From positions 35,650,001-35,714,000 of the forward strand of contig CM069132.1 in the NCBI GenBank assembly GCA_035221665.1: 64,000 nt of DNA, given 5' to 3'. The translations under genes and the position numbers were made by a program. Each line of letters opens with the position of its first letter. Position 1 is the stretch's first letter. Below are positions 7,601 through 49,660 of this stretch, in pieces. The stretch comes from Okamejei kenojei. Lineage: Eukaryota. The notes under the pieces were generated by a model. It saw only the letters and a program-made list of their open reading frames with translations, was not told where the DNA came from and made no database searches.

Positions 7601-10600
7601 ACTTTTATATGTTCAGTGGAAAGCTTGGTTTATCTGGTTGCTTACTCTTCAGAAGACTTGATCTTCATTCCAGTAATTCAACAAAGCATCTAACCTACAA
7701 CTAAATGCAATATTGCTGGAATGTTAAATTGTTGGATGTTTCACTTCTGTTAGGAACTAGCTTTTGGTTTCCTTGCTTCAGAGCAAACTTGGTTAACATT
7801 TTCGGTTTAGTTAATGGAGAACAGAGAGCTCTACAACCTGAACAATCATCCCCACCAACCACGCCATCATAAACACACAAACCTGTCATAAGCAAACACT
7901 GATCAGGCTGGAAAGCATTAAAAAATAATAACTAGAAATTCCATCAGGTCAGGCAGCAGCTCTCAAGAGAAAAAAAGTTAATTGTTTTTGGCCAATGATC
8001 TTTAATGAGAACCCATAACTTCTCAAATTATGTATCTCTCTCTCTGCAGAAGCAGTATAGCCGACTGAGAATTCCCAGCACTTTGTTGTTATAACAGATT
8101 AACTAGTTATTTAATCCTCTGCTTTCTTTGGGGGGATAATTGGTTTCAATTTTTATCATTCTAAAGCGTACTGAACATAAAAGTAATATATGGTGAGGCT
8201 TTACCATCTGAAACATGATCAACAATGCACAGTGAAGGAGTTACACATGGATGTAGGAAATGGAGGGATAAGGATCACATGCAGATAGCGGAGATTAGTT
8301 TAACTTGATATCATGTTTGGCACAAACATTGTGGGCTGAAGGGCCTGTTACTGTTCTATGTTGTAAGTTCCTGGATTAAATCACATTTTGCATTTACCTT
8401 TAATTGGTAGAAAATAAAACATGAAAACGCTGATTCCAGTGAATGTAACATTACAAGTTAACTTCTCAATTTGGTTTCACTTAAACTTAAATTCATTTGT
8501 GATTTAGTTTTCAAGGGTTGTTGTTTTAAACTGAGCCCAACTATTTTCAAAGGCTTGCCCTAAATACAGCTAAAAAGATAAGACTTATGTCCATTAGTTC
8601 ATCAATCACTCTCGGCCTAATCAGTCTTGTTTCCTTGTCAGTTGTGTTAAGTTCACTAAATATAGATATGTTTTTGTTTTAGTAGTGACTATGATATTGT
8701 ATACTAATTTAAACATTTTTTTTTTCAGGGACCAATGGGAGTGAGAGGCCCACAAGGAGCCGCTGGTGTCCCTGTAAGTATTATGATCTCTTGTCTTAAA
8801 ATCCTTACCTATTTATAATTGAAACTATGCAACACATTGTACTACCTCCATTTTTAATATTCACATTAAAGTTAATTTCAAAGACTTCACTTATAATGAA
8901 TTGTAATCAGATGCACGTGCTTCCTTTCAGGGTTCTCCTGGACCTTCAGGACAGCCAGGCATTCCTGGTGAATCTGGTTCAACTGTAAGTATACACCAAA
9001 GCCAATATTTCCTCCACTCAATATTTCCTAAATACTGGGACCATTTAGTTAATTTTTACTTTCCTTCTTTCCTTTTATTCTTCAGGGTCCAGTTGGTGCT
9101 CGTGGTCCTCAAGGTGTACCTGGAAAGCCCGGTGAAGATGTAGGTATACATTATGATTGACGACAATATGAATCATAACAGCATTTTTAACTTGTGATCA
9201 CTTCTTAACTGCAACAGTTCGCCTGACATCATAAAGAATCTAAAACAAAGAATTAAGGGAAAGAAAGCAGGAGAAGGTCTTAGTTAGCTCTTCATGGAAA
9301 GCCATTTCCATTTTGGACTAGGGATTCTGCTAAAATCTTTAATAACCATGACTTTGATCCCACTTTTCCTTGTTTTGCATAAGCATTGATTCCACTGTAA
9401 ACCAACAGTTTGTCACCCAGAAAATGATATTTTGTGATAATAAATTCTCTATTTCAAAGAATTACATGACTATTGTTGCATAAAGATTTGGATTCTTATG
9501 TATTCACCTAAATAGTGACAATTTTGGTGATCCTTTGGGATCATAGATGAAATGGAGTATCAATATTATCAACACAAAGATAATATTCCACATGTATGAT
9601 TGACGTCCCTTGTAGCAAGCATCTGATGTATTAGTGTGCACTGCACATTTTCAAGCACCAAAATATAAATATAAAGAACAGAAGCAAATGTCGGTCATTC
9701 ATCTCCTCTTCCCTGCTCTGCCATTCAACCAAGTCACATCTCATCTTTAATTTCAGTGCCATGTAATCCCATCCTTAGTGAATCCATTTTCTGCTATCCC
9801 TTTAAAATTCTGGTGCATTAAAGTCACATTTAATTACATTAAAATTCATAATGGGTTGCATATTTGCTTTATTTTTAAGTAAAAGATATCCACAATTATC
9901 CAACGTCTCACTGATATTGCCATTGCAAAAACCACCAAATTGCTTAAATGTTACCTTCATTTGATTCCTATGCAATTAAAGAAATAATAACAGAGATATG
10001 CATCTATGCAATAAAGAACAATATGACATAACATAACTGGAATAAAATGTAAACCCTTAAGAATTAGAATATCTTTAATTCATTGTAAATTCCTATCCTA
10101 GGATTCCTATTACAGAACTTGCATTATTAGATTGTTAAATATTTAGCTACTTCGGAAAAGTCAGTCAAATGTTCCAGTGATTCTTCATCTAAAATATTTT
10201 AAAAGGAATAAACATATAGAATTAACATGTTTTTGCCAGATTTGTTCCTATTACAGAGAAGACCTCTTACATTGCATTTACAATGTGGACAGCGAGTCAT
10301 GTTCTCACTGTCCCTTCAATACCTTATATACCAAATATAATGTTTGTGAGGACACAGTGGGTGTCATACGTATGCAGCTGCTCCTTGCTGCACCCTAACT
10401 GTATGATTCCTATGGCAGTACTAGCCTTTGTAGTCCTGAGGGTCAAATCACAATCCAGGCCTTGGTGCTGGAGCCGTATCTGGAAGTGAAGCAGTCCATT
10501 AAGCAATGACTGAAGATAGACACAAAATGCTGGTGTAACTCAGTGGGACAGGCAGCATCTCTGGATAGAGGGAATGGGTGATGTTTTGGGTCAGTTTAAA

Positions 10601-13600
10601 CCAGCATCCACAGTTCCTTCCTACACATAAGCAATGACTATTCCTCAGGTGATAGACCTGAGGTCCTGGACACCCTCAACATCCATTCCACTGCTTCTAA
10701 ATGTTGGCTATTCAAAAACATTTTAACCATTTTGTTAAAATTAGGAATTATTTAAACTAAAGTAATACATTTATTTTTAATTCCACTTAACTGATCTAAA
10801 ATCATTAAAACACTAAATATTATTTTTTCAGAAGAATTAAACCACTTGCACTTGCTCCCTAGGTCAACGAGCCCAGTTAAATAGATGGGATTAAACTGAA
10901 TATTCTAGCCCAGGCTGAAGCTAAAGAGTGTAACCAACACCTCAGCCAGACATGACTGAGTCCACCCCTAGATTCATTATTGAGTACATATGCACTGACA
11001 TCTGATCTTCATTCCCTGCCTAACCAATTCTTCAAAATTCAGGCAAGGAAGTCAGAAATGGCTGAGGAATATCAATAGTTTGCTTTCAAACCATCCAAGG
11101 ATCTCAATAGATTTAGGTCCAATGAACGCGTCAACTTTCCGATTGAGGGGGAAATGACGTTAGTTTTTCTATATGTTCAGCAAATGGGAATGGGTGATAT
11201 CAGAGGTGACCATGAAGCTAATCTGAACTTGATCTGTCCAAGGAATGTCTTATTCCTAATACAGCAGTCACTGATCTGGAAGACAACATTTAGGTTAAAT
11301 CTATCAGATTTTGCTAAATTCAGGCAGACAGCACTGAAGATTCATTCACCTGATAGATATTAGGCAAGTTGGAAACGCCTAGCACTTAATTGGTAATTGT
11401 TATTTGATGGCAATTATATAAAAGTCATACACTATTCGTTCTAAATACTAAAATGATGAATTAATCTACCTAGTACAGTAAATATCTGTAAAGTGCTTCG
11501 GTAATTGACATAGTGTGAAAAGTAAGATTCCATCTTTGTTTTATACAGGGTTCAAATGGCAAATCTGGCAAATCTGGCGAACGTGGTATTGTTGGACCCC
11601 AGGCAAGTGAAGTTGTTGCATGAGGTTTATCACCATTGAACTTGAAGGCATTAATCTTCCTGTACTAACAACGGCTTGACAATGTCTTTTTGTTTTGATG
11701 ATCCATTGATTATATTTCTCCTTTCCTCTTTATAGGGTGCTCGTGGTTTCCCAGGTACTCCTGGTCTTTCTGGCAGGAAAGGACACCGTGTGAGTTGAAT
11801 ATTATTTCTTTGCTACTTGATTTGTGCCACTATATGTAATTGGCCTTCATTTTATAATTTTTTTCCATTTCCTTACAGGGTTACACTGGCCTGGATGGAA
11901 CTAAGGGAGAACCAGGCTCTGCTGGAATGAAGGTAAGGCTGTAGCCACAGTAGCATTATAGTGAAGTAAGTCGAAACATTAGTTGAGGAAACATTTAGTG
12001 ATGTGATATAAAGTGGAAATTCATTAATCAGCTGCTGTTTTCTTAAATTTTGCTCACAATATAACCAGATTTTATATCAGAAAATCAAAGAGAAGCCTCC
12101 TTGATTAATTATGTTAACATTTACAAAACTTTATCTCTTGTTTTTTTTGTGAGTTTTCTCCAATTAAAGATTCTAGTGAAAACTGAGCAAATCAAAATCC
12201 TAATTGCTACTTATGGCGAAAAATGTAATTGAAATATATAATTAATTTGGATCGGAAAATATAATTGCTGTCCATTTAGGGGGAGGATGGGGGGGAGGTC
12301 CCAGGATACTGCAATTGTGGACTCCCTTGGAAAGAACAAATAGAAATCTACCTAGCCTGACCCTTTTACTACTAATGTTATAAATGGGTAGTTCAGCCAC
12401 TTTTTGTCTTCACTGTAATGATTCTTTTCAGAGCAGATATTTGCATGTTGCAATCCGAGTACATTAATCTCTGTTATTGCATAACTTTTCCATGGAAATC
12501 TTTGTTTTTATCTCATGTCTTTTTTGTACGTGTATTACATGTCTGAGATTCATCTTTTTGGTCCAGTTTGTTTGTAAGGCGATAATACAGTGACAAACTT
12601 CTCTATCAAGAGCATCTTATTAAGGAACAAAGCTTATTAAACTTGTGTTGTAGCAAAATATTCTAAAAATTGACAATAGTTAAAATTGTCATGGCAAGAG
12701 ATTTAAAAAAACACTTACTTCATTTTTCTGCTTTCCAAATCAATACTGGAATGAATAAATGTTTGATTCTCAAATGCAATCTGACCAAGATTTCTCAACA
12801 AGACTAGTTAGTGTCAGCCTTTACATCAAATAATGGAAACAAATTATGAATTTTGGGCAACATTTGCATTGCTCAAGAATTGGAAACTGGTTGGACATTT
12901 TACCCTCAATGGGTGTACGGAGAGAACAATTAAACAGAATAACGCAAGCAAAAATCAAAATATAGCACCCACAGAAAGAAACACCGGCTCCTTGCTTGCT
13001 ACCATAGTCATAAGTGATTTGCCAAACAATGTGTATACAAACCATCTGTGAAACATTACCTTCTTAGAAGAGTCATGACCCACTCTGTTGAGAAACACAA
13101 TTCAGCTTTGTAGTCATGCACAACCCAGTACTGAAATTAGAAGCAGCTGTATAATTTTAGGCCCAATAATTGTTTTCATGACAGAATGCAACCTAATTTA
13201 CACAAATCATCTGTTGGCTGCTTTAACATATTCTTAAAGAAAGGAAAGCTGCCTTGTGATTTTGAAACTGCGCTGAAGAGTCCAATGCAAGACCTTCTCA
13301 AAATGTAACTGGACATATCATGGGGAGATACCAAGTTAATCATAAAACCATGATAAAAGCCTCTCGCAGACATGACTCTCCTATGCCAGATGTTGGTTCT
13401 GGCCATTGATGCGACGTTTCACATATTATTTGATTATTTCAAAACAATCCCCATTTTATAGACACAGGTGTATCTCACAAAAAACGAAAATTCATGTTTA
13501 CTATTGTAAGCATATCTTTGATAAGTTATGTAAGATAAATATCACGGTTCTTTTGAGAAATTCACAGTCCACACAGCACTTCTCATTAATGGTCATGGCT

Positions 13601-16600
13601 GTTAATAAGGATCCTTGCACTTTCTGTTGTTCTGAGAGTTTTTAAAGAGTGAATTATTTCTTAAAAGAACCTCCCAAAAAAACTCTATAAATGTATCTTT
13701 ACTTTTGTTTGGTAAGGCAAACTTTGTTCCTTTTCCCATCTTTTATGCCGCTCTCTACTAAATTCTCATTCCAAGTGATGGATCAGTTTGACCTCCTGTC
13801 ATGCTTTCGGCCCTCTCCTCTAAAGACTATTAAGGAAGAATGAATAGAAAAATAAGTCTTAATGATGATTTTGAAATATTATTTTTAAATGAAAGCATCA
13901 GTAGTTCCCTGAACCTCAGCAGTCCATAATATATTTCTGCAAGACTGTATTATGTCAGGCCACAGTCATGCAATCAAACGCCAAAAGGTAATGATTTCAT
14001 CCAACATTTATATTGCCCGTGAATTGTTGATTCCTCAAGGATCTTGGTTATTTTTGGTTCATCAGTAATGTGCAAAAACCGTTTATTTACATATATCAAA
14101 GAAACTATATTTTCTACAACAAATGCAACACATTCCTTTCAGCAGAACATCAATAGCTGAGACAAACCTCCAGGAGTATGAAGATATTTGCAAGTGATCC
14201 TTTGATGTGTGATATTATTTGAAGGTGTTTCTCACACAGAACTGTTTGACAAACATTGATTTAGCTAATACATATTGCAGAACATTTATTGTAATAAATA
14301 CTGTGAAAAGTCAATCTAAAACTTCATACTGCTATTTTTTTAATTCCAGGGTGAAAATGGAAACGCTGGATCAAATGGTAGCCCTGGAATGGTGGTATGT
14401 GTTGCATGTTCAAAATGGAGAGATGGTTTTATTAATGCCCTGGGTAACCCATTATGACAGCTTTGTCAATAATAGTAAATAATGTAAATTTTTGCAAATC
14501 ATTGCTTGATTTGGTCACTTCCTGTCGTCTCCAATCCGCGCTTCTCGCAGTCAGCTTTCAGCCATATTTTCTGCTGCTTAGCAGGATCTATTGTCCTGGC
14601 ACCTCGATGTTGTAGTTGAGCCGTGAGGTTGAGTGGTCCATAGGTAGCGACCTGATGTCAGGCCGTGGCTCCATCCTGGATAGGATGAAGAAATTCATTT
14701 TAAAATAATGTCAACTAAAAAAGAATAAATGCCTCTTATCTGCTTGTGCTTATCTTTCTAATCATGACTCAAATGAGCTTGCATTGCGTACGCCAGACAT
14801 GGCCAGCGTAAAGCTGAGGGGCTGGATGTGAAGTGCATCCAGTGCTGCGTCCAGCAGCTGAACGAGGGTGAGATGTGCTGGCACGAGACTTTCCCCTGCT
14901 TCCCGTCTTCCACGTTTCAATATGCAGGCATGGAAAATGGAGGCAAGCTGTTCAGTGACCTAGATCTTACCAGAGTTTCTCTATGGAATTGCTGGCTGAT
15001 GATACAGGGAACAAAGTCATAATTTCACTTAACAATCTATGTGAAATAAGTGAATGCTTCTTATTTTGCAAACAGGGTCTCCGTGGTTCTACGGGTGAGA
15101 GAGGCCGCATCGGATCTCCTGGTGCAGTTGTGAGTGTCCTGTTTCTGACTCTCTCTCTATTTAGTTTATTTGTGCTCTTGGTGGAAAGCCTTATTCACCC
15201 CATGGCTGATCAGACATTTGTGCTTGGTGGACAATGTACCTATCTAACTGATTTTTCCAATTATTGATTGTACATTTGCCTTCCCATTAAATGAGACCTG
15301 TGCCAACATAGTGTAATTTTTGTAATTGTAATTTTTTTAATTAAAATTAAATTTGATTTTAACACATTAGTAATGTAAAAGAGTGATTTGCATCTTGATG
15401 GTGTGTTAAAATATTCTATTTTGTCATTTTTATGGAAGAACATATATGTGCCTTTCTTTATCATCAATTTCAAGACTGATAATCTGTCTTGTAGTATTGT
15501 GCATCTTCTGATTATATGTTTATTAAAAATGGTTTCCTGATTCATTGAAGGGTGCCCGAGGCAGTGATGGAATGGCAGGACCTTCTGGCCATCCTGTAAG
15601 TATGCCACTTGCATATAGTTATTGGGAGATCTAGCATGCCTTTCAACTCACTAAGTCCACATCAACCATCGACAAACCATTTACACTAGGCCTGCATAAT
15701 CACTTTTTTTCATTCTGTCCTCATTCCCCTCAATTCCTCCATAGATTCAACTATTCACCTGCACAATAGGGATCATTTACTCTGGCTAAGTAACTTACCA
15801 ATGTTCATGTCTTTGGCATGGCGGAGAAAACAAGAAGACCCAGAAGAACCTTATGCAGACACAGGGAGAATGTACAAACTCCATAGAGATAACCTGAGGA
15901 TCTGAATTTATACTGGGTCTCTGGCTTTGTGAGGCAACAGCTCTTCTAGCTGCACACATTTCCCCCACCATCCTATCCCCCCCTCCCTTTTTCCTGTACT
16001 GTCCCCTTCCTCATATGTTCATCCCCCTGGCTCTACATTTCACTCCTCTTCTCTGCTTATTTGACATTCTCTTCTCTTCCTTTCACCTCTCGCCTTTGTC
16101 CACTCATCTGCCAATCATACCATCCCTTATTGCCATGTTTTGTCCCACCCTCACCTCTTTTCCAGCTCCCCCCCCCCCCCCCCCCCCCACCTCACTACAA
16201 TCAGTTTGAAGAAAAGACTTGACCCGAAACATCACCTATCCATGTTCTCCACAAATCATGCCTGACCCACTGAGCTACTCCAGCACTTTATGTTTTGCTC
16301 CACATCATTTACCTGAAAGTATGATCTAAAATGATGATATCTTTTAAATGACTTCCAGTGAAATTAGTAATCATGGTAATCCTTGAAATTATTTATGACA
16401 ATAGATAATGTGGGAGTGCAGTGAAACGGATTCTGAAATACTATACCTTATACCTGATCCGAATGACTGACATTGATTGAATGTACCTATTTTCCTCATG
16501 ACAATGGTCTTTTGCAGCATTGATTGTAAATGTTGCCCAGGCAGATATTTGACACATAAGGATTATTATGGCAAATTGTATTTCTAAAATGTTCACAAGG

Positions 16601-19600
16601 TAAATATTGTTATTTTGTTACTTTACAGGGACTCGCTGGTGCAACTGGTCCTCCAGGCTTTTCAGGCAGTCCTGGTCCCAAGGTAAGTCAGCATTTTATA
16701 TTGTCAGAAATAGTGAATTATCTGGGTATGGAATATAATGCCACATAACTTTAATTGATGAGGGATGTTTTAAACTGTGATAAATAAACATTAAAGATCA
16801 TAATTATGCTTTAAATGACATATTTCAAACCATTGATTCCCATCATAAATTATCATGCATTTAAAAAATTCTTAAAGCCAAGCACCGATTTGGATTGAGT
16901 GAACATTGCTGCAGGGCAGATGATTCTCAACAAATTGCAATAATTGATTTTATTGTTTGAATGCGATTTTATACAGACCAGATATTCAATTGGTTGTTGC
17001 ATTCAATATTGTACAAATGTAAATATTGTACAATATTAAGTTGCAAATTAATTAAGTAAATGAATTCCTATCCTTTTATCTAAAGGTCACCTTCCAGATA
17101 AGCCACTGCAAGCAAGAACAATTGTTGTTTAATTTTATGATTGTCGCCTAGGAACCAATGTGACATAGAATTCAACAAATCTAAGGATGTAATAGTTAAT
17201 ACCAAAAACGTGGCCTCTATTTATTAACTGGATTTCTCGGCAGCATCCAGTGTAGATTTCTGTGCTTTTTTTATGGATAGTTGTGAGGTCACCTGACTGC
17301 TTTGGTGTCTTCAGAGCATCACTGCGTACATAAGTGTTTTATAGTTACTCAGCCACACCATGTTAATAATGAAAAAAATACATTCATTTATGTGTAAGAT
17401 AACCTCATGAAATTATTATTCATGCTCACCCTCTAAATGGTCTATGATATAACGTGGCAGGAAATAGATGTCTGCTACACCAATCTCCCAGTTTTACAAC
17501 TCTTCTAAGAAACTATGCGGAAACAAGGAGACACAATGTGGTTATTACTTGAAATATGAGATTATCCAAAATGACATTAATGGTCATGGTCATATTGATA
17601 TTATTAAGGGATTATTCCAATCATAGCTTATTTCAGAACATGAATGATCAATGTGCTTAGATTGGGTAAGCTCTCCATAACAAATTATGTGTTTCTCGAG
17701 TTTGTTGTTAGGAAAATTATGTGTTTAATTTTAAACTACTGCAGGTTCGATTTTTCCTCACTGAAACTCAACATTTGTCAAAGAAGTGCATTAATAGATA
17801 GACTGATAGACTGATATATAATTTGATAGAATTGTCCCAACAAAATAAAATAATATTTTTGATTTAATAAACTAAATAATTGTACTTGACTGACATAATT
17901 TATAATGTTATTCCATTACTTGATCAATAGGTTCTAAATGAATTGTAAGAGATTGGATTAAACATTGTTCTTATTTGGTGGTTTCATGGTTAAATGGTCT
18001 AAAAATGACCAAACCATACAGATACAAATATGAACAATATATTTATTCCAAAATGTATACATTGAGGCCAAGTTAGGTAAATTAACCATTACATCCTTAG
18101 ATTTGCTGAGTTGTAAGTTACATTGGTCCTTATGCACCAAAACCTTTTGAATTATATATCATTTTCTCAACACTAACTGAAATAATTGCACACCAATTCA
18201 TATTTTTATTAGATGAGATTCCCTCTGGTTAACTTACCAGTTGTTTTTGAATTCCAATTAAAAAAAGCAATATAATTAAATACAGCTTGAAATAATAATG
18301 TCCATTGAAAAGCAAGGTAAATAGGTAATATTCAGAAATCATGTTAGATGGAGAGGATTATAATAGTTGACATGCCAGATGCTGTATCACTTAGCTCGGA
18401 GCAAGTTAAGAAGTTTGATATACCTGTGATAACAACCCAGGCTGAACTCACAACCTGCCTTTCTTTTATTTCACTTTACAAAGGGTGAGGTTGGGCCAGT
18501 GGGTGTTCGTGGTCCAACTGGAGCTCAAGGAGCCAGAGGGGCGCCTGGTGCTGTTGGTGCCGTTGGCCCCATGGGTCTTACTGTAAGTACTTATGACAGC
18601 AATATCTTTCAAGCGTTTTAAGAAATGATCTAATTCAAATGAAAATATTCATTTCTATATTCATTCTTTTTTTTAAATCCTAGGGAAATGCAGGTTCCAA
18701 TGGTCTTACTGGATCAAAGGGTGCAATGGTTGGTACATTCAGCATGCATCTATGGTGCCTCTTCATTTAATTTCTTAGCCATCAAATACTTGACGTGTGT
18801 GTTTCTTACACAGGGTGCCCATGGTATCGCAGGTGCTCCTGGCTTCCAAGGAGCCCGTGGTATAGCCGGCCCCTCAGGTGCAGTAGGACCTGCAGGTCTT
18901 CGTGGACTCTCTGTAAGTAAAGCATGCTATCTAGCTGTCAAGCAATTGCCATAACTATTCCATCCGATGGGAGGAAATAACTATTTTTGATAACCCATTC
19001 CTTTTATCCTTATCAGGGTGACCCTGGCGTTCAAGGTATCAAGGGAGAGACCGGTTCCAAAGGCGAGCCTGTGAGTGTTTATTCTTTATGTTTCTCTGCA
19101 AGTTTGATTGTCTTGAGATTCTCTGTCATCTGTCACTCATGTCTACACGTTCCTGTTGCTAAAATTAGGGTGATGCTGGACCTGCAGGTTCCCCTGGACA
19201 ATCTGGTGAATCAGGCAAGCAAGGTTCTCGTGGTGATGTTGGTCTTCAAGGACTTCAGGGAATTCCAGGCGAAAGGGTAAAGTTAACATTACATTTTATA
19301 AACTAAATTGCAAAGCATTCAGACCTTCAGTTTTACAAATTAAATCAACATTACCTAATAATAATGTTTACAGTTATTTGGTGATATAAGTGAACTTGTA
19401 TCTTTTATTTGCAATTTTGAGCACTCAACACAATATGTGCATTGAATGTGGGCATTGTTTAATAGTTTCAGAATTCTCACCAATGTAACTGCTTTTGAAT
19501 AGTTTTGATCATTTGATCTTTATGTGGCATGTGGCAGTCCTATACACACAGACTGGGCTGCAATCCCTTTGTCTATGCAAGACCAGTCAATGTAATTTTA

Positions 19601-22600
19601 ATGATTATGTACAAAAAAACAGTAAGATTGTAATAAATTAGACAATAATATTTCTGTGTTTTTTTTATTGGCAACTTCCCAATACGTTAACATTTACAAA
19701 ATTCAATGAGATTTATTGTTGAGTACACATTCAATCTTTTATTTAATTTTATTTGTAGGGTTCCACTGGTAACCGTGGTATGCCTGGAAGTTCTGGAATT
19801 GCTGGTGCTGTGGTAAACTTTGCTCTTTTAATATTAAAAAATCAAGGAAAATGAACAGCATGTGACTGTATTTTATTGAATGATTATGTTGGTTGATTTA
19901 CAAGAGATATTCACAATTACTTTCTTTTCTATATCATCTCTAGGGTGCTCAAGGCAGACGTGGTGAAACGGGTGCTGCTGGTGCCGGAGGGCCTGCTGGT
20001 GACATGGGACGTCCTGGTGAAAGTGGTATGCCTGGTCTAAGGGTGAGCAATACTAAAGCAACAACTGCAATAATAAGCCCAGCAGAAATGAATGCAACTA
20101 AAAGTTTGCGTACTAGTATTTATTTTATTGACATACTTCTAATTTTGACTAATTGTTTAAATCTGATATGGTATTGTAGTTTATGTTAATAAACTGTTGA
20201 TAACATTTTAAAAGAAGCTTCCAACATTATGCTATAATAAAACAAAATATATATATTTCTCATTAAATCCACTATGTAATCATAATCGTACTTTATTAGC
20301 CAAGTATGTTTTGCAACATACAAGGATTTTGGTTTGCCATACAGTGATAGCAAAAAAGCAACAAGACACACAACTACATAAAAATTTGACATAAACTTCC
20401 ACCGCAGCGGCTCCTCCACATTCCCCACTGTGATGGAAGGCAATAAAGTCTTATCTTCTTTCCTCTTTTCCTCCCGCGGTTGGGGGAGTCGAACCGTCCG
20501 CAACCAGCGATCGAGCTCCCACATCGGGGCAGCCTAAGCTCCCGCATTGGGGCGGTCGAACTCCTGCGGCTTGGAGTTCCCGAAGTCGCCCGCTAACCAG
20601 GGACCGTGAGCTCCGTAATGTTGAAGTCCGCAGCTCCCAATGTTTGGAGCACCAAAGGCCGATCCCTGGCAAAGGGATCTCCCATACTGAGATGTTAAAG
20701 CCCACAGGCTCCGCGGTTTTGGAGCACTAGAAGTCCCAGCAAGTGGCCTCCAACTCCGCAATGTTAGAGTGCAGTGCCGACGGAGATACGACACGGGAAA
20801 AAGTCGCATCTCCGTTGTGAAAAGAGATAAGAAAAGTTTCCACCCACCACCCCCCACATAATACAAAACTAAAGATAAACTAAAACATACATTTTACAAC
20901 AAACTAAAAAAAACACAAAGAACGATAAAGACGGAGACAGACCGTTGGCGTGGCAGCCATCGTGCGGTGCCCACTGGTGGTAAATATATTATCTAATTTA
21001 GACATATTATGGTATTTTTGCACAATTATGTTTTTAAAAGTGAATAGCCACCAGTTTTGCTTTTATTTCATATCTTGGAACATTTATTCAATTATGTGTT
21101 ACTTGTTTCATAAAGCCTCAGGAGCAATTCATTTCTGCATATGCTGATGAGTTGTCATTTGGAATTCGCCTTTGAGAGATTTTTATAGCCTTTACAGTTA
21201 GAGAATGAATAGATCAATTTGTTGACAATCTAATGTAATCTAGCTTAATTGTATACATTATAGAATGAGATGTAAAACATTTATGCTTTCCTCACTATAG
21301 GGTCTTATGGGACAACCTGGTAGAAGTGGTATTATGGGAAATCAAGGTCTTCCAGTAAGTTTTCTCACCTTACATTAATGTGTTATTTTTCAGGGTATCG
21401 TAGGTAGTACCGGCATTATAGGTGCTCCTGGCAAATCAGGTCCTGCTGTAAGTTGGTTTTAGGTTTTATGCTCCCCTTATTGACAGCTTATTCAATCTAA
21501 TAAGTTTGAATAAAGCATGGCAAATTACATGGGAATATTACATTAGAATTATTCCCAGGCATTTAAATAATGATCAGGCATTAATTATTAGGTTTTGCTA
21601 ACTTTTAAAGTAACATTATTTTATTAAAATGCTAATTGAATAACGTAGCAGTTTAGTCTTGGTGCAGTAACTGCAAAACTCTGTGCCATTTAGTTCTACT
21701 AACAATTACTCATTTATGATGCAATAACATTGCATACATATTACTTAACAGAAAATCCCATTTAACTTAACTATTTATCTATTAATTATGTGTTCAGCAC
21801 AAAAATCGCAATTCATAATTAACAATAAATCAAAGCGTTAACTGTTTTGTCTTAGTAATTACCTAAAGATTTAAGAATCCTAATATGACAAATTGTTGGT
21901 GATCACTTAGAAACAGTTTTACAACACAGCCAAAAAGTATCTAAGACTGTCAAAACACAACAACAATTTCAGGAACAACTTTTGGTGAATAAAAGGCAAC
22001 ACTTAACAATAACTTTGTTGAGAATGTATTGCCATTTTTATATTTGAAGCATCATGTGGGCATCCTTTCGAATGTTGTTTGCAATCTAAGATACATATGT
22101 GGGGTGGCACGGCTGGTAGAGCTGCCGCTTCACAGCACCAAAGAACTAGTTTTGATTCTGACTTTGTGTGCTGTCTGCGTGGATGTGCACGTTCCCCCCA
22201 GTTTCCAGCAGGTTTCCTCCAACCTCCCAAAGATATGCTGGTTTGGAGGTTACTTAGCCTTTTTGCAAATTGCCCTGAACATGTAGGCCGTGCATACAGA
22301 AGTGGGGTAACATTGAGCTAGGGGATCAGGTGATTGATGGTCGGTGTGGACTCAGTGGGCCAAAGGGCCTGTTTCCAATCTGTATCTTTCAATCAATCAA
22401 TCAATTAATAAATCAAACAATCAAACACCAGGAAGTCTGAGTCAAAATAGCACTCGCAATTAGCCGCCTCATTTCATCCGCAGCTGTTCATTTTGATTCA
22501 TTTGCAATGTATTTCAACCTAGTCATAATTTGATTGCTTTTACTGTCACAGTTTCCTGACAGTCCAATATATAGACACGTATCTTAAAATACAAATCTTG

Positions 22601-25600
22601 CTGAAATGTATATATCAGTGGACGCAATACCCATTGAATACTTAGTGTGGATAGCTTCCTCAATTGATTTTCATATGTTGATGTCTGAATCATGTTTTAC
22701 TATAATATATAATTTGACTTTGGAAAAAAAAACTAAAGCCTACTAATGTTTTAGGGTTATGCATTTTACCTTATGCTATAATACCAACTACTATGTAATA
22801 AAAGATGAATAACAAGCATTGAGTTTTTATCTAAATATCTGCATTGATCAATAACATGCATGGAAGTAAAACAACAAACATGCATTTGTAAAAATAATCC
22901 TCAGTAACTTGTGAAGAGCATTGTTTCATTGTCTAAGATCATATATTTTAGGGTCCAAATGGTGAAGAAGGTCGTTCTGGACCCCCTGGTCCTGCTGGTC
23001 CAAGAGGTCAGGCCGGAATGATGGGCTTCCCCGGTCCCAAAGGCGCTACTGTAAGTAACATTATTATATAATAATCAGCAAATATATACCAAATGTCAAA
23101 TATATTATTGCAAGGGTTTCTGAGTGGTCTTTACTATTGATCTACTGTTAAAGCCTTTCCAAATTAAAATTCTAACCAATTTTATTCGGATCATTATAAT
23201 ACTTTCCTTACTGCCGATAAGTATGTGTGCTTTGGTTGTAACTTTGGGGGCTTTATTTAGATATAATCAAAAAGAAGTGGTGGTTTGTGCTTGGTGGTCA
23301 ACTTCATGCTGACCATCATCTGGTGTGGTTTATGGGGCCCACTCTGGCATTGTAGTTCCAATCCCACTTGTACATCAAAGCATTTTTTGGATGTTCTTCA
23401 CCTGCTCTGCGACCCTCGGTAGTCTAGGTGTTAAGCTGCAAATGTTAACTCGGAACAAAATCTTGTTAGTCATGTGAAACAATGAGTTTGTCAAATTAAT
23501 GGCTAAAAGTTTGCTTTCCAAAAATAAAATACAGTTTCTCTTCTTTCCCAGGGCACAGCTGGTAAACCTGGTGATAGAGGAGCTGTTGGTCCTGCTGGCC
23601 AAAGGGTAGGTTTAATGTCATCACTACGTTTCACAGGGTTTCAGTGATATGGTTTACTTCATGCACTGTGTTAAGCCAACACATGATACACTCAAATATC
23701 ACTATCTTTGTGCACTTGCGTTAAAGTTTATACTTTTTAAGACACATGTAGGAATAAAAGCTAATATTTTGATATCAGCAGATGAACTATAACTCTTTTT
23801 TCCAATATTTCTACAAAGCAGAAGATTAACACATTTAAAATAGCACGGGTAATGGGCTTATTGTACGAACGTTAAGTGATTGTTAATTAAAGACAATGCT
23901 CATGCTTTCCAGCCTTTAAAGTCCAATCTTCTGTAATTTCAAAAATTCCTCCAAGATTAATAATGCTGTTTAAAAATTGCGGAAAGCATATTGACTTCAA
24001 CGGAAATAAAATTGAATGATCAATGTTGCAAAGGGAGAATTTCAGTCAATGAAAACAGGATTTATAAACAGTTATTACATAGCAAAAGTCAAGAAGTAAA
24101 TGAAGTATGTATAAGTTCAACGTATATTTATTAATGTGAAATAATGTTAATATTTATGCATTGTGATTAGAATATATAATGAAGGATATTGTTTTAAACT
24201 CTAAGAAATACTTCTTGGTAATTTTAAGTTCATTTTCTATATTTTTTAGCTAATAGCTAATAGTATGTAGTGAACATAAACATCGTTGATTTTCCCAAAG
24301 GAGTTAAGAATGCCTTGAAGTGATGGGGTAGATTTTCAGTTTGAGACGTTGAGCTGGATGGTTAGGTTGCAGTACCAGCTTACATCACAGTCACTAAGGC
24401 CCCATTATTTTCAGGTTCACACCCTTGCTGAAAGCTACACGAGTGAAATGTTCACAGGATGGCATTTTCAGATTGTAGTAAATCATTTGTTTGCATACAC
24501 AGTGACCAGCTAGAAGGATCAGACCCCTCATCCACTCCTAACCTCATAAACAGTTCAGAACTAAAAGAGTATTTATCATGGTCTCTTAGTGCAGATAGAT
24601 TAGGCCCTTAAATCTCTGGCATAGAATTACTCAAAAGTCAATTGCTATTCAATGCTATTTCAGACAATCCTTCAAGGCTCCCTGGTTTTTTGGGTGAAGC
24701 AATAGTCAATGGTTGAAAATTACCTCAACTATAGGACAATGGGCAATCGTAGACATGATACATATCTATCTGAAGAACAATCCCATTCCAAAACGTTATC
24801 TATCCATGTTCTCCAATGATGCAACCTGACCTGTTGAGTTACTCCAGCACTTTGTGGCTTTTTTGTAAACCAGCATCTGCAGTTCCTTGTTTCTACATCG
24901 ATATGATATGGTGATCTTATGAAATAATGTTGCTAAACCTCTTAAACAAAAAGGAAAGAATGAAGAAGATCAGAAATACATTTACAAAATTGTCTTTATC
25001 TCCACCTTCAGAGAAGGATATTGATCAATTATATCTCAAGTAAAATTAGTTATGGTGTATAGAAACATAAGCATCTCCTAAAACGACGGTGATGAAATTA
25101 ATTTTACCCATTCATTCTGACGTTTAAATTACAGTATTAAAAATACAGACTTGACAATCTCTAAGGAGTGATAATAAGGAAGGTTCATTAATATAATGAT
25201 AACATTTTCCTCTGGTCACTTTGTATTTCAGGGTGCGCCTGGCAAAGATGGTGAGAGTGGAGGTCAAGGTGCTGTTGGTGCCGTGGTAAGTAAATCATTA
25301 CAAAAGCAGAAAACTCCAGAGCAGATCTTAGATACAACTATAAGCCTTAACAACATGTTGCATGAAAGTTATCACCCATGTTAAACATTATTAAGTACAT
25401 TCAGTTTCCTTCACTTAATCAAAAACTGCAAAACATTTAAAATAATCTGGTTTAAAGTCAAGAAGTAAATGATGTATGTATGAGTTCAACGTATATTTAT
25501 TAAAGTGAAATAATGTTAATATTTATGCATTGTGATTAGAATATATAATGAAAGATATTGTTTTTAACTCTAAGAAATATTTCTTGGTAATTTTAAGTTC

Positions 25601-28600
25601 ATTTTATATATTTTTTGGCTAATAGAAATTGGTATGTAGTGAACATAAACATCGTTGATTTTTTTTAAAAATGTCAACATTATTACAGTATGTTCATTTA
25701 CTTTCTTTGATTACCAAATCATATGTACAAGTTTCACAACATAGATACAGTTGACACTTAACAACTTGGTCATGCTGATGAATTCCATGTTATTATTCTT
25801 AAGGGTCCCGTTGGATCAAAGGGTGAACAGGGTCCATCTGGCAGTTCTGGATTCCAGGTCTGATTCTGAACTTCAATGTCTTTTTACTAACATAATATAT
25901 ATAACTTTGTTATAAATAAAACATTCATATAATGGGCATAAAATGGGTAAAGTGATTTTGTCATAAAACATATGTGTGTTGTAAATGTTTGCATGAAAAT
26001 TAATTTAAAATAAATGATTCACATTATTGCACACATAGCAGACAATTGATGTTCATACATATGTGTAAAGCCCCTGTCCCACTTACGTGTGTCCTTGGCA
26101 CGCTAATTACGCGACCTCGTGGTCGCGTTGAAGCGCGACAGTTCCATGAAGGTCGCACGCGACTTCATGCGTCCGTACAGCCCGTGGAGCGCGTGACCTC
26201 ATTTGAAGATGGGCACAAAATGCAGGAGTAACTCAGCGGGACCGGCAGCATCTTTGGAGAGAAGCAATGGGTGATGTTTCGGGTTGAGACCATTCTTCAG
26301 TCTGAAAGAAGAGTCTTGACCCGAAACGTCATCCATTCCTTCTCTCTAGAGATGCTGCCGGTCCCTCTGAGTTACTCCAGCATTTTGTGTCTATCTTCAA
26401 TTTTCGTGGCTCCACTCTTGGAGTAGAAATGGGGGCGGATCTGGACCGCAACGGCCGTGAGCCACAGGCGATCGTTTGCCTGCTTCTGCTGCTGTTGGAG
26501 GTGAGACGTTGCGTCGTACCAGGGTCTTGGGCCTGTCCCACTTTGGCCGTCAGTTACGCGACAGGTCGGAGGCGCGCAAAGATTTTGTTCGCTACAAAAT
26601 TTCGGAGCACCGCACGATTCCGCGCACAACTCCATACCCCTCCTCACTTCTCAGTGGGACCGGCCCCGCGCGGCCACATGATGCACGTGCGCCTCAACGC
26701 GACGATGAGGCCGCTTAATTTGCGTGCCAAGGACACGTAAGTGGGACAGGACCTTAACTCGTAGAATTCGGCTTGATTTTGCTGCAGCAATTAGAGAAAT
26801 AATAATTGAATCATTTTTCCAAATGTTTGTTTTGCTTTGCAGTAACCTTTAGGTTAATAATGTCAATTATATGTAACAGATTCACTTTGTAAGTTATGAA
26901 AGAGGAAGTTCCTTTAAGAAGTAAATTAATCAGTATGAGGTGAATTGCCTCAACTGGTTGCAGGCTGCAGCTAGCCTACAGTAAACTCCTCTATCATCCT
27001 GGAGCTAATCTAAAATCCATTAGCAACATTTCCATTCCGGCTATATGCAAGTGTTGTTTACCACGCTATAAAAAAACAGATATTCCTGATAAATACCATT
27101 TCATTTATTGACGTAATCTGTTCTCAAAATGACAAAGGAATATTTAAATATTACTGAATGATAAATCACTGATCAGCAACAAAAATTCAGGTTTTTAAGT
27201 GTATTCGCGCTAGTCATAAGCTGCTTACTCAATGGTATCAATGCACACACATTACCATCTGCATGTTCAATTTCCTCTTTGTTCAAATACTTGTTCCACT
27301 GACAAATTATTAGAGGGAATGATCAAATTACATAACACATACATTATCATCTTCAGCAGTATTTTCTACTACCTAATGCTTTCAAAATTTAGTGCAGTTA
27401 CTAAGCACTGACATGCGAGAATTTTCCATTTTTATTCATAATATGAAAAGTCAGTTTAAAGTATTTTATACATATAAAACATTAAAAAGGGGTATTATTT
27501 GTCGTCACCGTGTGATTTTGTCAATATGAAAATCTTTGATATTTGTTAGTACTCTCACCAAATGTTAATGGGGGGTTTTCTCACTGGTACCCTAGGGTCT
27601 ACCCGGTCCTTCTGGTGCAGTTGGAGAACCTGGTAAACTAGGTGATAAGGTAAGGAGACAATTGACTCTCTAATCTATAAAACTTTACATATAAGAAATA
27701 ACATATGATCTAACTATTTGAACCTGAATGTTTTGAAGGGGACGGTAAACATTTATCCAACTAAAGAACTATGGTAAATACTGTACAATACATATGTGAT
27801 TTATGCTCCCCTCACACATGATTGTACTGGAAATTTAATGTCAGACACCCAGTATTTCAGAAGAAGTCTGTTCATAGGCAGCCTGTTTTAAAAGACCATA
27901 ACTGGACTGCAGATAGACACAAAAAGCTGGAGCAACTAATGTAAGCAGCGTTTCAGACTCTAAACGTTACCTGTACCTTTTCCCCAGAGATGCCGCCTGA
28001 CCTGCTGAGTTGCTCCAGTTTTTTTGTGTCTATCTTTGGTTTAAACCAGCATCTGTAGTTGCTTCATACACATTACGAGACTGCATGCAGTTTTGCTCAC
28101 TTGGCTCTCATAATCATAGTTGGATAAATGTAGCCAGATAATTTTTTTTAACAGATTCCAAGCAGTGCCTTGAAGACCAAGAGGTCTGATCACATTATAG
28201 GAAATACCCTTGGGAGCATGACCAAAGGTTCACAAAAACAGCTCACAAATCTGTGATCTTGATCTCACTAGCAGTGTGTACACATGCAATAGGACGAGAA
28301 CAAAATGCATCCTCCTACATCTGGTTATCAAAATCAGCAAGTAATGAATTAATCTTTTCTGCTAGTCTTTCATCAGTGAATTACAGCTAAATGCTTTAAC
28401 ACTAGTTACATTTGTGCAAATTTAACTCTGTTGAAGACATTTTATTCAGATTTTCATCGTCACTATCTGTGTGATGATTTAAAGAAACAAGCCTGTCCAA
28501 TTTTCAATGCTTTGATTTCAATAGCAAGAAAATCAGATGGATTGTCTAATCCACAGGTCTACTCTGCTGGATGGCACTTCCAGCTGCCATTTATGTTCTC

Positions 28601-31600
28601 AACATTCACGCTGGCCATCTTATTTTATTACTGTTCACTATATATTTTTAGGAGTATCGTTTCTTTTTTGAAACATATCTCATGAATCCAAATGGGTTGA
28701 TTTTAACCAGGCCGAAACAGAGGGAAAGCACATCTTAGTTGACAGATATAGTTGGTAGCATATTTGTTTATTTTGGAATTTGAAATTATATTTTTATGAG
28801 CATTGTGATGTTGAAACATCTTCCTTATCCCTTTCTTATTTCATCACAGGGTCTGCGTGGTGACTTTGGTAGTCAAGGTGCTTCTGGAGCCAGAGTAAGT
28901 TCGAGTTTCTTTTGTGCTTTTGACCACTGAAATAGCTTAGCAAAATAGCATCATGATTACAGCAATTTCTTCATATTTCCCTACTTAGGGTGAGCGAGGT
29001 CTCCCAGGTACACGAGGCAGTGCTGGTCCTCAAGGTATTACTGGTGCCCGTGGTCCCACAGGTGCCCCTGGTGCTGATGGTGGAAAGGTACGTTGAAAGC
29101 AAATAATTTCATTGTTGCTGACCTTCTGAAAGTTCTTTGACAACATGAAAGGTTTCTTGCCTTGCATTATGCAATCTAAGCACAAAAGTCACAAACTTTG
29201 TATTTGATCCAAGTAAATTCACTGAATAGCTAATTAGTGATTTGTTACATTATACCAGAATATTTTCACAAAATGATCATTTGTTTTCAAAAATTTACTC
29301 TGAATGTAAGTTCTACTGCAGTTTGTTTTACTTGCTCTATATAGTGCTGAGTTTAAATAAATGCATCATTAGTAGGCAAAAATAATTTGAAGTATATTTT
29401 CCTTCAGTCTAAAGATCATATTAATTATATTTGAAATGAGGGTTTACTCGTGGTTGCAGTAAAGTAACCACTCGACCATTTAAGTAAAAGCATATTTGTA
29501 TATCATCATGTTTAATGCACTGTTAAATAATTATATTTTTCCCACTCAGAGATTATTACATTTTGCAAAGACTCAGTAGTTAGGGCAATTGTGAATTTGG
29601 TTGAGTAAAGTTAGGTCCAATAATACCATATCCTATAGCTTAATTTTATTAAGGAAACATATCTTAAAATATATAGAAAGTACTGGAAACAAAAATTGTT
29701 GCAATAAATCAGCACAAAACAACAAACTGGCCAAATGAAGACTATGATAGCTCTCCTCATGCATCGCCCTCGCCTTTGATCGGAGGTTATTCCCCCCCAC
29801 CTTTCACTGAATTAAACTGCATTCCCAACATAGCTGCTCCATTTGTATGAAGTTAAATATTTTTTTACTTCAGTAACTCATCACCCTTTATTTCCAACAA
29901 GCTATTGGCTAGTTAGTTATATTATTTTGTTGGGGAATTATCATTTCCCATAGTTTTTATTGAATTTATTCAAGATAATTTACACTCATCTTGTCATGGA
30001 TGCAAAGGAGAAAATATTTAAATCGCCCAATTTTTCTGATCATCAGGCAGATTTTTTTGAGAAATACTGGCAGGCTCAAGGTTTCTACACATGCAGGCAC
30101 AGATACTGAAGTCCCAAACTCCCGTGGTCCTTCACTTATGCATCTACAACTGAGTCCAGTGTTGAAGTGCAAAATTGCAGCAATCACCTCTGGTGCAGGA
30201 AGTTCCCTCCATTAAGTCAATCACATCTGGTTTAGGGAGCTCTCTCAATTGAGTCAATGGAGGAGGATGTCTTCAAAGGAACGAACAAAGTATTCATAAT
30301 TTTAGTTATTTTTAATTGCCTCAATGAAGATGAATATTTTTAATTTTTTAACATTTAGCTTGTTCACTTTTTTTAAATGTTTAAATAATTTTTCAATTTA
30401 TATTATCACAGAGGGTCATGCACCCGTGAGCCAATCATCAAGCACTTATTTACACAAATCCAATTTTCATTCTTCCCTCATCCCCATCAACCTCCTCCAA
30501 ATGTTATCACTCACTTACACACTGGCGGCAATTTACAGTGTTCGATTAACCTATCAACCCACCTGTTTTTTGGACTGGGAGGAAAGCAAAGCACTCTGGG
30601 GAAACCTATACATTCACTGAGAGAACACCAAACTCCACACAAACGGCACTGAAGCCTTGTTACTGAAGATGTGAGGCAGCAAGTCTGCATGATGCACAAC
30701 ATGCCACCCAATCATTTAATAGTTTCCCTCGTGTTTTAAATGGTTTCAACTTTTAATGTTAGTTGAGTTTTTTTTATTGTTGAGTAGTTAGATTTTTTTT
30801 TAAAATTATGAACATCTCAATGATAGAAGTATTTATAGCGATTCACAGCTTTGATGATTAGTTAAGGTCAGGGCATAGGTTAGCTGGCTGTCAACATTTT
30901 ACACAGGCTTTTGTTGCTGGCCCAGCCCTCAGCCTTCACCCCACGTAATTTGATTTCTGTACAGACTCCACAACCTCGGCACTGAGGTTGGAACCAGCTT
31001 CTTCCACCAAACACACACCAAAAGTATGCCTAAAATTAACCAGGACCTATGATAGCGGAAAAATAGGCAGGTCATTCCTGCCAGCAAGATTCTGGCCCGC
31101 GTTTCAGTCTTCCATCTGCAAACTGCACTGGTGTTCATCTGACTCCTTTGTACAGACTCTGCCAATTTTCAGTCACACACTTTTTTGCATATGACAACTT
31201 GGTCCTACTTTGCCATTAAAATATCTTTGTAACAAGAAGCAAATGATTTCCAGTTATTAGATTACAAAATATTGACTAACACACAGCAATATTGTTCATT
31301 GTCCCCAATTAGGGTGAAGCTGGTGGTACTGGACTTGTTGGTCATACAGGACCTCAAGGTTCTCAGGGTATGCCAGGTGAAAGAGGTGGTGCTGGAGGCC
31401 CTGGCACAAAGGGTGAAAAGGTAAATCTTCATCAATCTTTGGTGAAGTTAATTTTCTTTAAAAATGTATAATTTTCTTACATGCTTTATGTCTTCCTAGC
31501 TAAGTGTAAAGCTTGATTAGTAACTGTGTGGTATCCACCAATCTGAATGAAAACTACTGCTATTACATTGTATGCTTCCTGTTGATTGCTTGGTCATTCT

Positions 31601-49411: not shown

Positions 49412-49660
49412 ATGAACTTGAGCTAAATTAGAATACTCTCTGCATTTTTTCTTTTATTTTTTACATTGCTGACTCATTCCATGTCTTCTGCTCATCCACT
49501 TGCTTAAGTTCTGGACTTAACGAGAAGTAGGAAATCCAAAAAAAAGGGAAATTGTTTTCTCCGTTCAATTTTAATGCAGTTCCCAACAACTTGGAAATTT
49601 GAAGAGATTATTGCAGGTGAAACCTTGCCCTAAAGGTTGAAATCAAAACAATGGAAAGTA

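What the first reader, a model, noticed from the sequence alone, without database searches (positions are those of the whole stretch)
21301..21447. Candidate mutually exclusive exons 24a/24b in the type I collagen triple helix
Seen: between exon 23 (99 bp) and exon 25 (99 bp), where clade-A collagens have one 54-bp exon, there are two perfect 54-bp Gly-X-Y exons, [18 protein letters not shown] and [18 protein letters not shown]. Each has a pyrimidine-AG acceptor and a GTAAGT donor. All 6 Gly are kept in both, but 0 of 12 X/Y residues match, which argues for an old duplication with both copies under selection rather than an assembly artefact or a decaying copy. The spacer (21355-21393) is only 39 nt and has an in-frame TAA at 21376-21378. 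One exon gives the canonical 1014-aa helix; both would give 1032 aa, out of register with a canonical alpha1(I). Known: vertebrate introns below about 65-70 nt are essentially not spliced, and a branch point too close to the upstream donor enforces mutual exclusion (alpha-tropomyosin exons 2/3). The branch candidates ctcAc (21367) and ttaAt (21378) lie within 25 nt of the 24a donor. I know of no alternative splicing in the major helix of COL1A2. Inference: two equal-length alpha2(I) isoforms differ at helix residues 361-378, next to the vWF/DDR/SPARC-binding region in exon 25, and may be tissue- or stage-specific.
Basis: partly seen in the sequence, partly recalled or inferred. Interest (0 to 1): 0.93.

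Follow-up and report, generated by a model that had tools for sequence, protein, structure and literature searches.

The report
Swappable exon in type I collagen
In this vertebrate, probably a cartilaginous fish, the gene for the alpha-2 chain of type I collagen holds two alternative versions of one 18-residue piece of the triple helix, and RNA from a close relative shows each message taking one or the other, so one gene makes two equal-length chains.

Summary
Real and RNA-supported. The gene is COL1A2. Between exons 23 and 25 lie two perfect 54-nt Gly-X-Y exons, 39 nt apart. One exon gives the register of rat alpha2(I); two do not.

Raw RNA reads of a related species show both paths. Run X24: 23-24a 200 reads, 24a-25 225, 23-24b 33, 24b-25 35. 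X23: 12, 12, 9, 2. No 24a-24b or 23-25 joint is among the 15 rows shown (50 hidden). A contig run closer to the window shows only the 24a path. 24b is the minor form (about 14%) and looks ancestral; 24a looks derived.

Steric exclusion by the short spacer is inferred, and the spacer length was read only in this assembly. Tissue or stage regulation is not shown: the two runs do not differ. No functional difference was tested.

Seven paper searches found no report for vertebrate type I collagen. The closest system is nematode let-2 exons 9/10. This scan noted helix exon swaps before, in invertebrate fibrillar collagens on other DNA (unchecked notes). New variant of a known kind.

The parts
19944..20042 (+). 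Exon 23 (99 nt); its donor feeds either 24a or 24b
   Evidence: joints to 21301 and 21394
21301..21354 (+). Exon 24a (54 nt, helix 361-378): major form, derived-looking; two Y-position Pro, Arg at exon position 8, no Lys
   Evidence: X24 200 reads in and 225 out, X23 12 and 12, X2 contigs
21355..21393 (+). 39-nt spacer: 24a donor, three yUnAy branch candidates (A at 21367, 21372, 21378, 12-23 nt after the donor G), in-frame TAA 21376-21378, 24b pyrimidine tract and AG
   Evidence: length read only in this assembly
21394..21447 (+). Exon 24b (54 nt, helix 361-378): minor form (about 14%), ancestral-looking; keeps Lys at exon position 14 like all four paralogous exon 24s
   Evidence: X24 33 reads in and 35 out, X23 9 and 2
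22952..23050 (+). Exon 25 (99 nt, helix 379-411), common acceptor; carries the vWF/DDR/SPARC-type motif at about helix 396-405
   Evidence: binding partners of the matching PDB peptides are recalled
8729..49416 (+). COL1A2 gene body from helix exon 7 to the last coding exon, with the canonical clade-A exon chain apart from the doubled exon 24

Best explanation
COL1A2 here has a mutually exclusive exon pair inside the major triple helix. SHOWN (in related organism D; only the 24a path in the closer organism A): exon 23 is spliced to 24a or to 24b, and each is spliced on to exon 25, giving two alpha2(I) chains of 1014 helix residues that differ at 361-378; 24a makes up about 86% and 24b about 14%. 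INFERRED, exclusion: the 24a donor lies only 12-23 nt from every branch-site candidate of 24b, so the spacer cannot be spliced out, and U1 on the 24a donor and U2 on the 24b branch site compete for the same short stretch. The upstream exon wins by default and 24b is used when 24a is passed over. Both exons are multiples of 3, so nonsense-mediated decay cannot remove double-inclusion or double-skip messages; only spacer retention meets a stop. INFERRED, origin: tandem duplication of exon 24 in this gene alone, with 24b keeping the ancestral pattern and 24a diverging and taking over. INFERRED, effect: a change of the local helix surface (Arg368 and two hydroxylatable Pro in 24a; Lys374, one hydroxylatable Pro and more beta-branched residues in 24b) with length and register unchanged.
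For: Junction reads for all four either/or joints with GT..AG ends, balanced in and out (24a 200/225, p=0.24; 24b 33/35, p=0.90). Bin depths in X24 match exon-only coverage (114 vs 112 expected; 20.5 vs 21.2). The DNA-like run X16 covers both exons and shows none of these joints. Rat alpha2(I) has 375 residues between the exon 7 and exon 25 equivalents, i.e. 357+18. Both exons have strong splice sites (donors rank 12 and 1 of 42, acceptors 13 and 14 of 42). All four paralogues have a single exon 24 with Lys at position 14. 24b scores 34 against them (3.4% of 320 background windows as high) and 24a -11 (46%). Donor-to-branch distance under 50 nt is the accepted steric criterion (PMC5740500, passages), and let-2's 30-nt spacer is never excised (PMC4165533, passages).
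Against: The 24b path was seen only in organism D, not in the window's own species; the organism A contig run X2 had no coverage at 21411 (contigs drop minor branches). 50 joint rows and 21 gap rows were hidden, so absence of 24a-24b joining is not proven; read balance only caps it at about 5% of transcripts. The X16 contig spanning both exons is 32 letters longer than the window at a place not shown, so that species' spacer could be longer. 24a and 24b show no more similarity than random exon pairs, flanks included, so the duplication origin rests on position and size. X23 counts are small (its 9 reads for 23-24b start at 2 places). The ancestry test is weak (p about 0.03, overlapping windows).
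Confidence: 0.85

Rival explanations
1. Same splicing, no distinct function: an exon replacement in progress. 24a has taken over, and 24b is the old exon that still leaks into about one message in seven. It stays intact only because a Gly change in any included helix exon is dominant-negative. This rivals the functional reading, not the either/or splicing.
For: The 24b share is the same in two runs with very different expression (by read starts 4 of 23 vs 48 of 238, Fisher p=1.0). No RBFOX or QKI motif in the spacer or 300 nt upstream, and no special fold (z=0.09). In-frame helix changes act dominant-negatively (PMC9320522, passages), which explains Gly conservation without a second function.
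Against: 24b has the top-ranked donor of the gene. The only 24b difference shown in organism D is synonymous, whereas neighbouring exons show mostly amino-acid changes (383 rows hidden). Only two samples of unknown tissue were counted.
Confidence: 0.4
2. Exclusion is regulatory, not steric: the spacer is longer in relatives, or shortened by error in this assembly, and splicing factors pick one exon.
For: The X16 contig over 20953-22134 carries 32 extra letters at a place not shown; 39+32 would be a spliceable length.
Against: The spacer is 39 of the 1182 nt that contig spans. The window lies in a 164-Mb contig. The spacer holds a complete donor, branch candidates, pyrimidine tract and AG.
Confidence: 0.08
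3. The 39-nt intron is an ultra-short intron that is spliced, and a real share of messages carries both exons (1032-residue helix).
For: [quoted passage not shown] Hidden rows leave a small share open.
Against: In/out balance for both exons. The spacer is not G-rich. An 18-residue insert would break register with the alpha1(I) paralogue, whose 42 helix exons are canonical.
Confidence: 0.03
4. Artefact: the second exon is a haplotype or assembly duplication, a decaying copy, or the minor reads come from another gene copy.
For: The spacer is odd for a vertebrate; the RNA reads come from another species.
Against: The two exons are unrelated at X/Y positions. The region is single-copy. Both exons are covered by one contig in organism E. 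Reads join the same exons 23 and 25 to either exon in two samples.
Confidence: 0.02

Closest known systems
C. elegans let-2, alpha2(IV) collagen, exons 9/10 (PMC2119826, abstract passage; PMC4165533, passages)
   Same: Either/or exon pair in a collagenous domain, both 3n long, separated by an intron too short to excise (30 nt there, 39 nt here).
   Different: let-2 is a nematode network collagen; its exons are 108/111 nt, 56.8% alike in protein, differ mainly in a Gly-X-Y interruption, and switch from embryo to larva under ASD-2. Here it is a vertebrate fibrillar chain with an uninterrupted helix, equal lengths, 0 of 12 X/Y matches and no switch shown.
Sterically enforced mutually exclusive exons: alpha-tropomyosin exons 2/3 (Smith and Nadal-Ginard 1989, seen only as a reference listing; details recalled) and 57 of 629 human clusters (PMC5740500, passages)
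   Same: Donor-to-branch distance under 50 nt blocks joining of the two exons.
   Different: In tropomyosin the intron is of normal length with a far-upstream branch point (recalled); here the whole intron is 39 nt. The word collagen does not occur in the main text of the human survey; its supplements were not read.
Alternative splicing in vertebrate fibrillar collagens: COL2A1 exon 2, COL11A1/COL11A2 variable region (PMC9320522, passages), COL5A1 C-propeptide (title in a reference list only; paper not held)
   Same: Isoforms of a fibrillar collagen chain made by splicing.
   Different: Those lie in the propeptides (placement partly recalled). In the passages read, splicing changes within the major helix appear only as disease mutations. 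Here the choice is inside the major helix and keeps its length.
Helix exon clusters in invertebrate fibrillar collagens noted earlier by this scan (e1-7275146, e1-7275148; unchecked notes)
   Same: Equal-length alternative Gly-X-Y exons that keep a 1014-residue helix.
   Different: Other genomes, invertebrates, several clusters or 99-nt triplets; not tested here.

Membership tests
COL1A2 (pro-alpha2(I)) | Clade-A helix exon chain (45/54/99/108/162 nt) giving 1014 residues | tested here: met
   same chain in paralogues; canonical sizes recalled and in PMC2852846 passages
COL1A2 (pro-alpha2(I)) | COLFI C-propeptide with 7 Cys (second Cys missing) | tested here: met
   Cys counts 1+3+2+1; PDB C-propeptide matches; the rule itself is recalled
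COL1A2 (pro-alpha2(I)) | Synteny with CASD1 downstream; fifth of five clade-A loci | tested here: met
   PF07779 about 100 kb downstream, same strand; five clade-A C-propeptide loci; human gene order recalled
COL1A2 (pro-alpha2(I)) | No vWC domain in the N-propeptide | tested here: inconclusive
   Only very short candidate exons seen by eye at about 1602-1730 before the minor helix; exon 1 not located; feature from PMC9320522 passage
COL1A2 (pro-alpha2(I)) | Groups with named alpha2(I) chains in a tree | not testable with these tools
   No close named orthologue in the protein searches
Mutually exclusive exon pair | Each exon joined to both flanking exons in RNA | tested here: met
   All four joints in X23 and X24 (organism D); only the 24a path in X2
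Mutually exclusive exon pair | No double inclusion, no double skipping | tested here: inconclusive
   None among 15 rows shown, 50 hidden; balance caps double inclusion at about 5%
Mutually exclusive exon pair | Same length and frame, same protein segment | tested here: met
   54 nt each, phase 0; register with rat alpha2(I)
Mutually exclusive exon pair | Detectable homology between the two exons | tested here: not met
   27/54 nt, 0/12 X/Y, flanks at background; non-homologous pairs are also recognised (PMC4165533)
Sterically enforced pair (let-2 / tropomyosin type) | Donor-to-branch distance under 50 nt | tested here: met
   39-nt intron, candidates 12-23 nt from the donor; in this assembly only
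Sterically enforced pair (let-2 / tropomyosin type) | Lengthening the spacer allows double inclusion; branch point mapped | not testable with these tools
   needs a minigene and lariat sequencing
Developmentally regulated collagen switch (let-2 type) | Ratio changes with stage or tissue | tested here: inconclusive
   Two samples of unknown tissue, no difference

The most novel reading that the evidence does not exclude
A vertebrate lineage has evolved a regulated splice switch inside the type I collagen triple helix. Particular tissues or stages (for example dermis, fin rays, perichondrium, mineralised tissue or embryo) make the 24b heterotrimer and others the 24a one. This would change charge and hydroxyproline content at a gap-zone patch of the fibril about 5-6 nm from the vWF/DDR/SPARC-type site, and give by splicing the kind of type I diversity that bony fishes get from a third alpha chain gene.
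Probability: 0.35. Interest if true: 0.88.

Novelty: new variant of a known kind. Interest (0 to 1): 0.7.

Why it matters
The major helix of vertebrate type I collagen is normally treated as constitutively spliced, and length changes there cause disease. A length-neutral either/or exon shows a way round that constraint. It gives a natural pair of alpha2(I) chains that differ in only 12 X/Y residues, a direct test of how local sequence affects helix stability, fibril packing and ligand binding. It also bears on the 54-bp exon-duplication model of collagen evolution, since it catches a duplicated 54-nt unit tolerated by exclusion. Practical point: collagen peptide fingerprinting and phylogenies of these fishes may be comparing non-equivalent exons at 361-378.

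Tried and rejected
Protein searches for close COL1A2 orthologues failed: 5 hits among 112 candidates, none above 74% identity; 87 hits, best 72%; a helix exon query returned only unnamed or bacterial collagen-like proteins at 65% or less among the 120 listed of 3876. Conservation of the pair in sharks and chimaeras therefore stays open. PDB searches with each exon alone gave one weak C1q match each, uninformative. No run that holds the stretch is on record as RNA (no RNA holder listed); 4 of 24 runs were laid. No duplication relic in the flanks (upstream 55%, downstream 7% of 903 pairs score as high). No unusual RNA fold and no RBFOX motif; one QKI-like motif at 21697. Lys374 as a hydroxylysine or glycosylation switch was rejected: it is in the X position (enzyme specificity recalled). 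Gly-X-Y-like runs at 5645-5698 and 22339-22374 lack splice sites. A peptide-motif search of papers found nothing. The zebrafish collagen supplement held none of three motifs as text. The sequence supplements of PMC8355665, which has three chondrichthyan outgroups, could not be seen and could show which exon public sequences carry. The fourth paralogue (C7 minus strand) was read only around exons 21-25. No structure or complex was predicted: the exons are too short for those tools.

Full report
VERDICT. The steric mechanism is a well-grounded inference. Regulation and function are open. New variant of a known kind; interest 0.70.

OBSERVATION. A six-frame scan for Gly-X-Y runs recovers the full clade-A exon chain 7-48 on the + strand, with one extra 54-nt exon between exons 23 and 25. 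A scan for AG...GT-bounded Gly-X-Y exons over 1-50000 finds no other extra exon. 24a is 21301-21354 and 24b is 21394-21447; the spacer is 39 nt with an in-frame TAA. The other 41 intron lengths measured are 85 nt or more. The exons share 27 of 54 nt (background 26.4 +/- 3.2 over 276 pairs) and 0 of 12 X/Y residues. Such an element is expected about 1e-8 times by chance in this intron. The region is single-copy in the assembly.

THE GENE. It is COL1A2. The C-propeptide has seven Cys. A CASD1-family gene lies about 100 kb downstream on the same strand (human order recalled). The genome has four other clade-A loci. In rat alpha2(I) (PDB 3hqv_B) the exon 7 equivalent starts at chain residue 15 and the exon 25 equivalent at 390. 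That is 375 residues, which equals exons 7-23 (357) plus exactly one 18-residue exon.

RNA EVIDENCE. I laid 4 of the 24 runs listed on 19755-23804. X23 and X24 are raw oligo-dT reads of organism D, a relative whose indexed runs hold 0.51-0.52 of the query words; about 5% of each run was read. In X24, 23-24a has 200 reads, 24a-25 225, 23-24b 33 (24 starts) and 24b-25 35 (24 starts); the flanking joints 22-23 and 25-26 have 171 and 201. In X23 the four counts are 12, 12, 9 (2 starts) and 2. All four joints have GT..AG ends. X2 holds contigs of organism A (0.94 of words). The tool marks it as probably DNA, but it shows spliced joints at depth 4000-6000 over introns at about 40. It has the 24a path only and no coverage at 21411; contigs drop minor branches. 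X16 (organism E, DNA-like) has one contig across both exons and none of these joints.

LIMITS OF THE RNA EVIDENCE. No 24a-24b or 23-25 joint is among the 15 rows shown, but 50 were hidden. Entries and exits balance for both exons (p=0.24 and 0.90), which caps double inclusion at about 5% of transcripts (one-sided 95%). The 24b share in X24 is 14% (95% interval 10-19%). By read starts, X23 (4 of 23) and X24 (48 of 238) do not differ (p=1.0). The 24b path was not seen in the window's own species. The X16 contig is 32 letters longer than the window at a place not shown, so the spacer length is unconfirmed outside this assembly.

WHICH EXON IS OLD. Each of the four paralogues has one exon 24, all with Lys at exon position 14. 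The loci on C31 and C44 have the canonical 42 helix exons throughout; the C7 plus-strand locus shows no extra exon from about exon 9 on; the shortest intron among the exons found is 86 nt. The fourth paralogue was read only at exons 21-25. 24b keeps that Lys and scores 34 (BLOSUM62 sum over X/Y) against the four, with 3.4% of 320 overlapping background windows as high; 24a scores -11, with 46% as high. So the minor exon looks ancestral and the major one derived. This is weak statistically and no outgroup alpha2(I) exon 24 was obtained. No similarity beyond background remains between the two units, flanks included. Age cannot be read from the divergence: among the differences shown for organism D, 8 of 11 changed codons in exons 22-25 are non-synonymous; 24a has one amino-acid change and 24b one silent change (383 rows hidden).

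MECHANISM. Both exons have strong sites by a matrix built from the gene's other 41 exons: donors rank 12 and 1 of 42, acceptors 13 and 14 of 42. The only yUnAy matches upstream of 24b are at 21367, 21372 and 21378, 12-23 nt after the 24a donor. A donor-to-branch distance under 50 nt is the criterion for steric interference, met by 57 of 629 human clusters (PMC5740500, passages). In C. elegans, five 3n clusters including let-2 have spacers too short to excise (PMC4165533, passages). Human ultra-short introns exist but are mostly G-rich (PMC4463651, passages); this spacer has 5 G and no G-triplet. I infer that the spacer cannot be removed, and that U1 on the 24a donor and U2 on the 24b branch site compete, with 24a the default. 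Decay of faulty messages cannot police 3n exons, and helix length changes are dominant-negative (PMC9320522, passages), so a physical block is what would let the duplication survive. No special RNA fold (z=0.09) or RBFOX motif was found.

LIKELY EFFECT (inference). Length and register are unchanged. 24a has two Y-position Pro, Arg368, two Met and no Lys. 24b has one Y-position and one X-position Pro, Lys374 in the X position, three Ile and a Val. With D=234 (recalled) the segment maps to 0.54-0.62 D, in the gap zone. It ends 18-22 residues before the motif in exon 25 that matches the collagen II/III peptides in PDB (their partners vWF, DDR2 and SPARC are recalled), so any effect on those ligands would be indirect. 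The main functional rival (0.4) is that 24b is a leaking remnant kept clean by dominant-negative selection.

COMPARISON AND NOVELTY. It works like let-2 exons 9/10 (PMC2119826, abstract passage) but sits in an uninterrupted vertebrate fibrillar helix, has no X/Y homology and shows no stage switch so far. Natural splicing named for vertebrate fibrillar collagens concerns COL2A1 exon 2 and COL11A1/A2. Seven searches of the open library found no report of this pair, or of helix exon swapping in type I collagen. Most hits I saw only as listings; I read passages of PMC12627340, PMC2852846, PMC7461916 and PMC12562938 and section 2.2 of PMC8355665 without finding it. Subscription journals are mostly not covered, the sequence supplements of PMC8355665 were not available, and automatic genome annotations may already list both isoforms. 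The scan's own notes describe comparable helix clusters in invertebrate fibrillar collagens on other DNA (unchecked), and nothing like this sequence or in this genome.

Noticed in passing
window 23003-23032 (exon 25): This alpha2(I) chain has an alpha1-like motif (Met-Met-Gly-Phe) at helix 400-405, unlike the tetrapod alpha2(I) form (recalled). The alpha1(I)-like paralogue (L004 1501-1599) carries the collagen II/III-type site with Gln-Pro before the motif.
   Followed up: no
window 11603-11608: The intron after exon 10 starts with GC (GC-AG intron).
   Followed up: no
window 19759-23050: Helix exons diverge fast in protein: 8 of 11 changed codons shown against organism D are non-synonymous and most reads are 90-95% alike, although the last exon and 3' UTR keep about half of their 31-letter words.
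   Followed up: partly
window 8729-44388: Low proline: 126 of 996 residues in exons 7-48 with 24a (summed by hand), low against mammalian alpha2(I) (recalled).
   Followed up: no
L014 5805-5904 (G000:C7, plus-strand clade-A gene, COL3A1-like): Exon 23 is 100 nt instead of 99, a frameshift in this assembly; exon 25 of the same gene lacks one helix Gly just before the vWF/DDR-type motif, and exon 26 reads as 63 nt. Assembly error, broken allele or a divergent gene.
   Followed up: partly
window about 20290-20970 and 22050-22450: High-copy interspersed repeats in introns 23 and 24 attract many reads and contigs from elsewhere.
   Followed up: no
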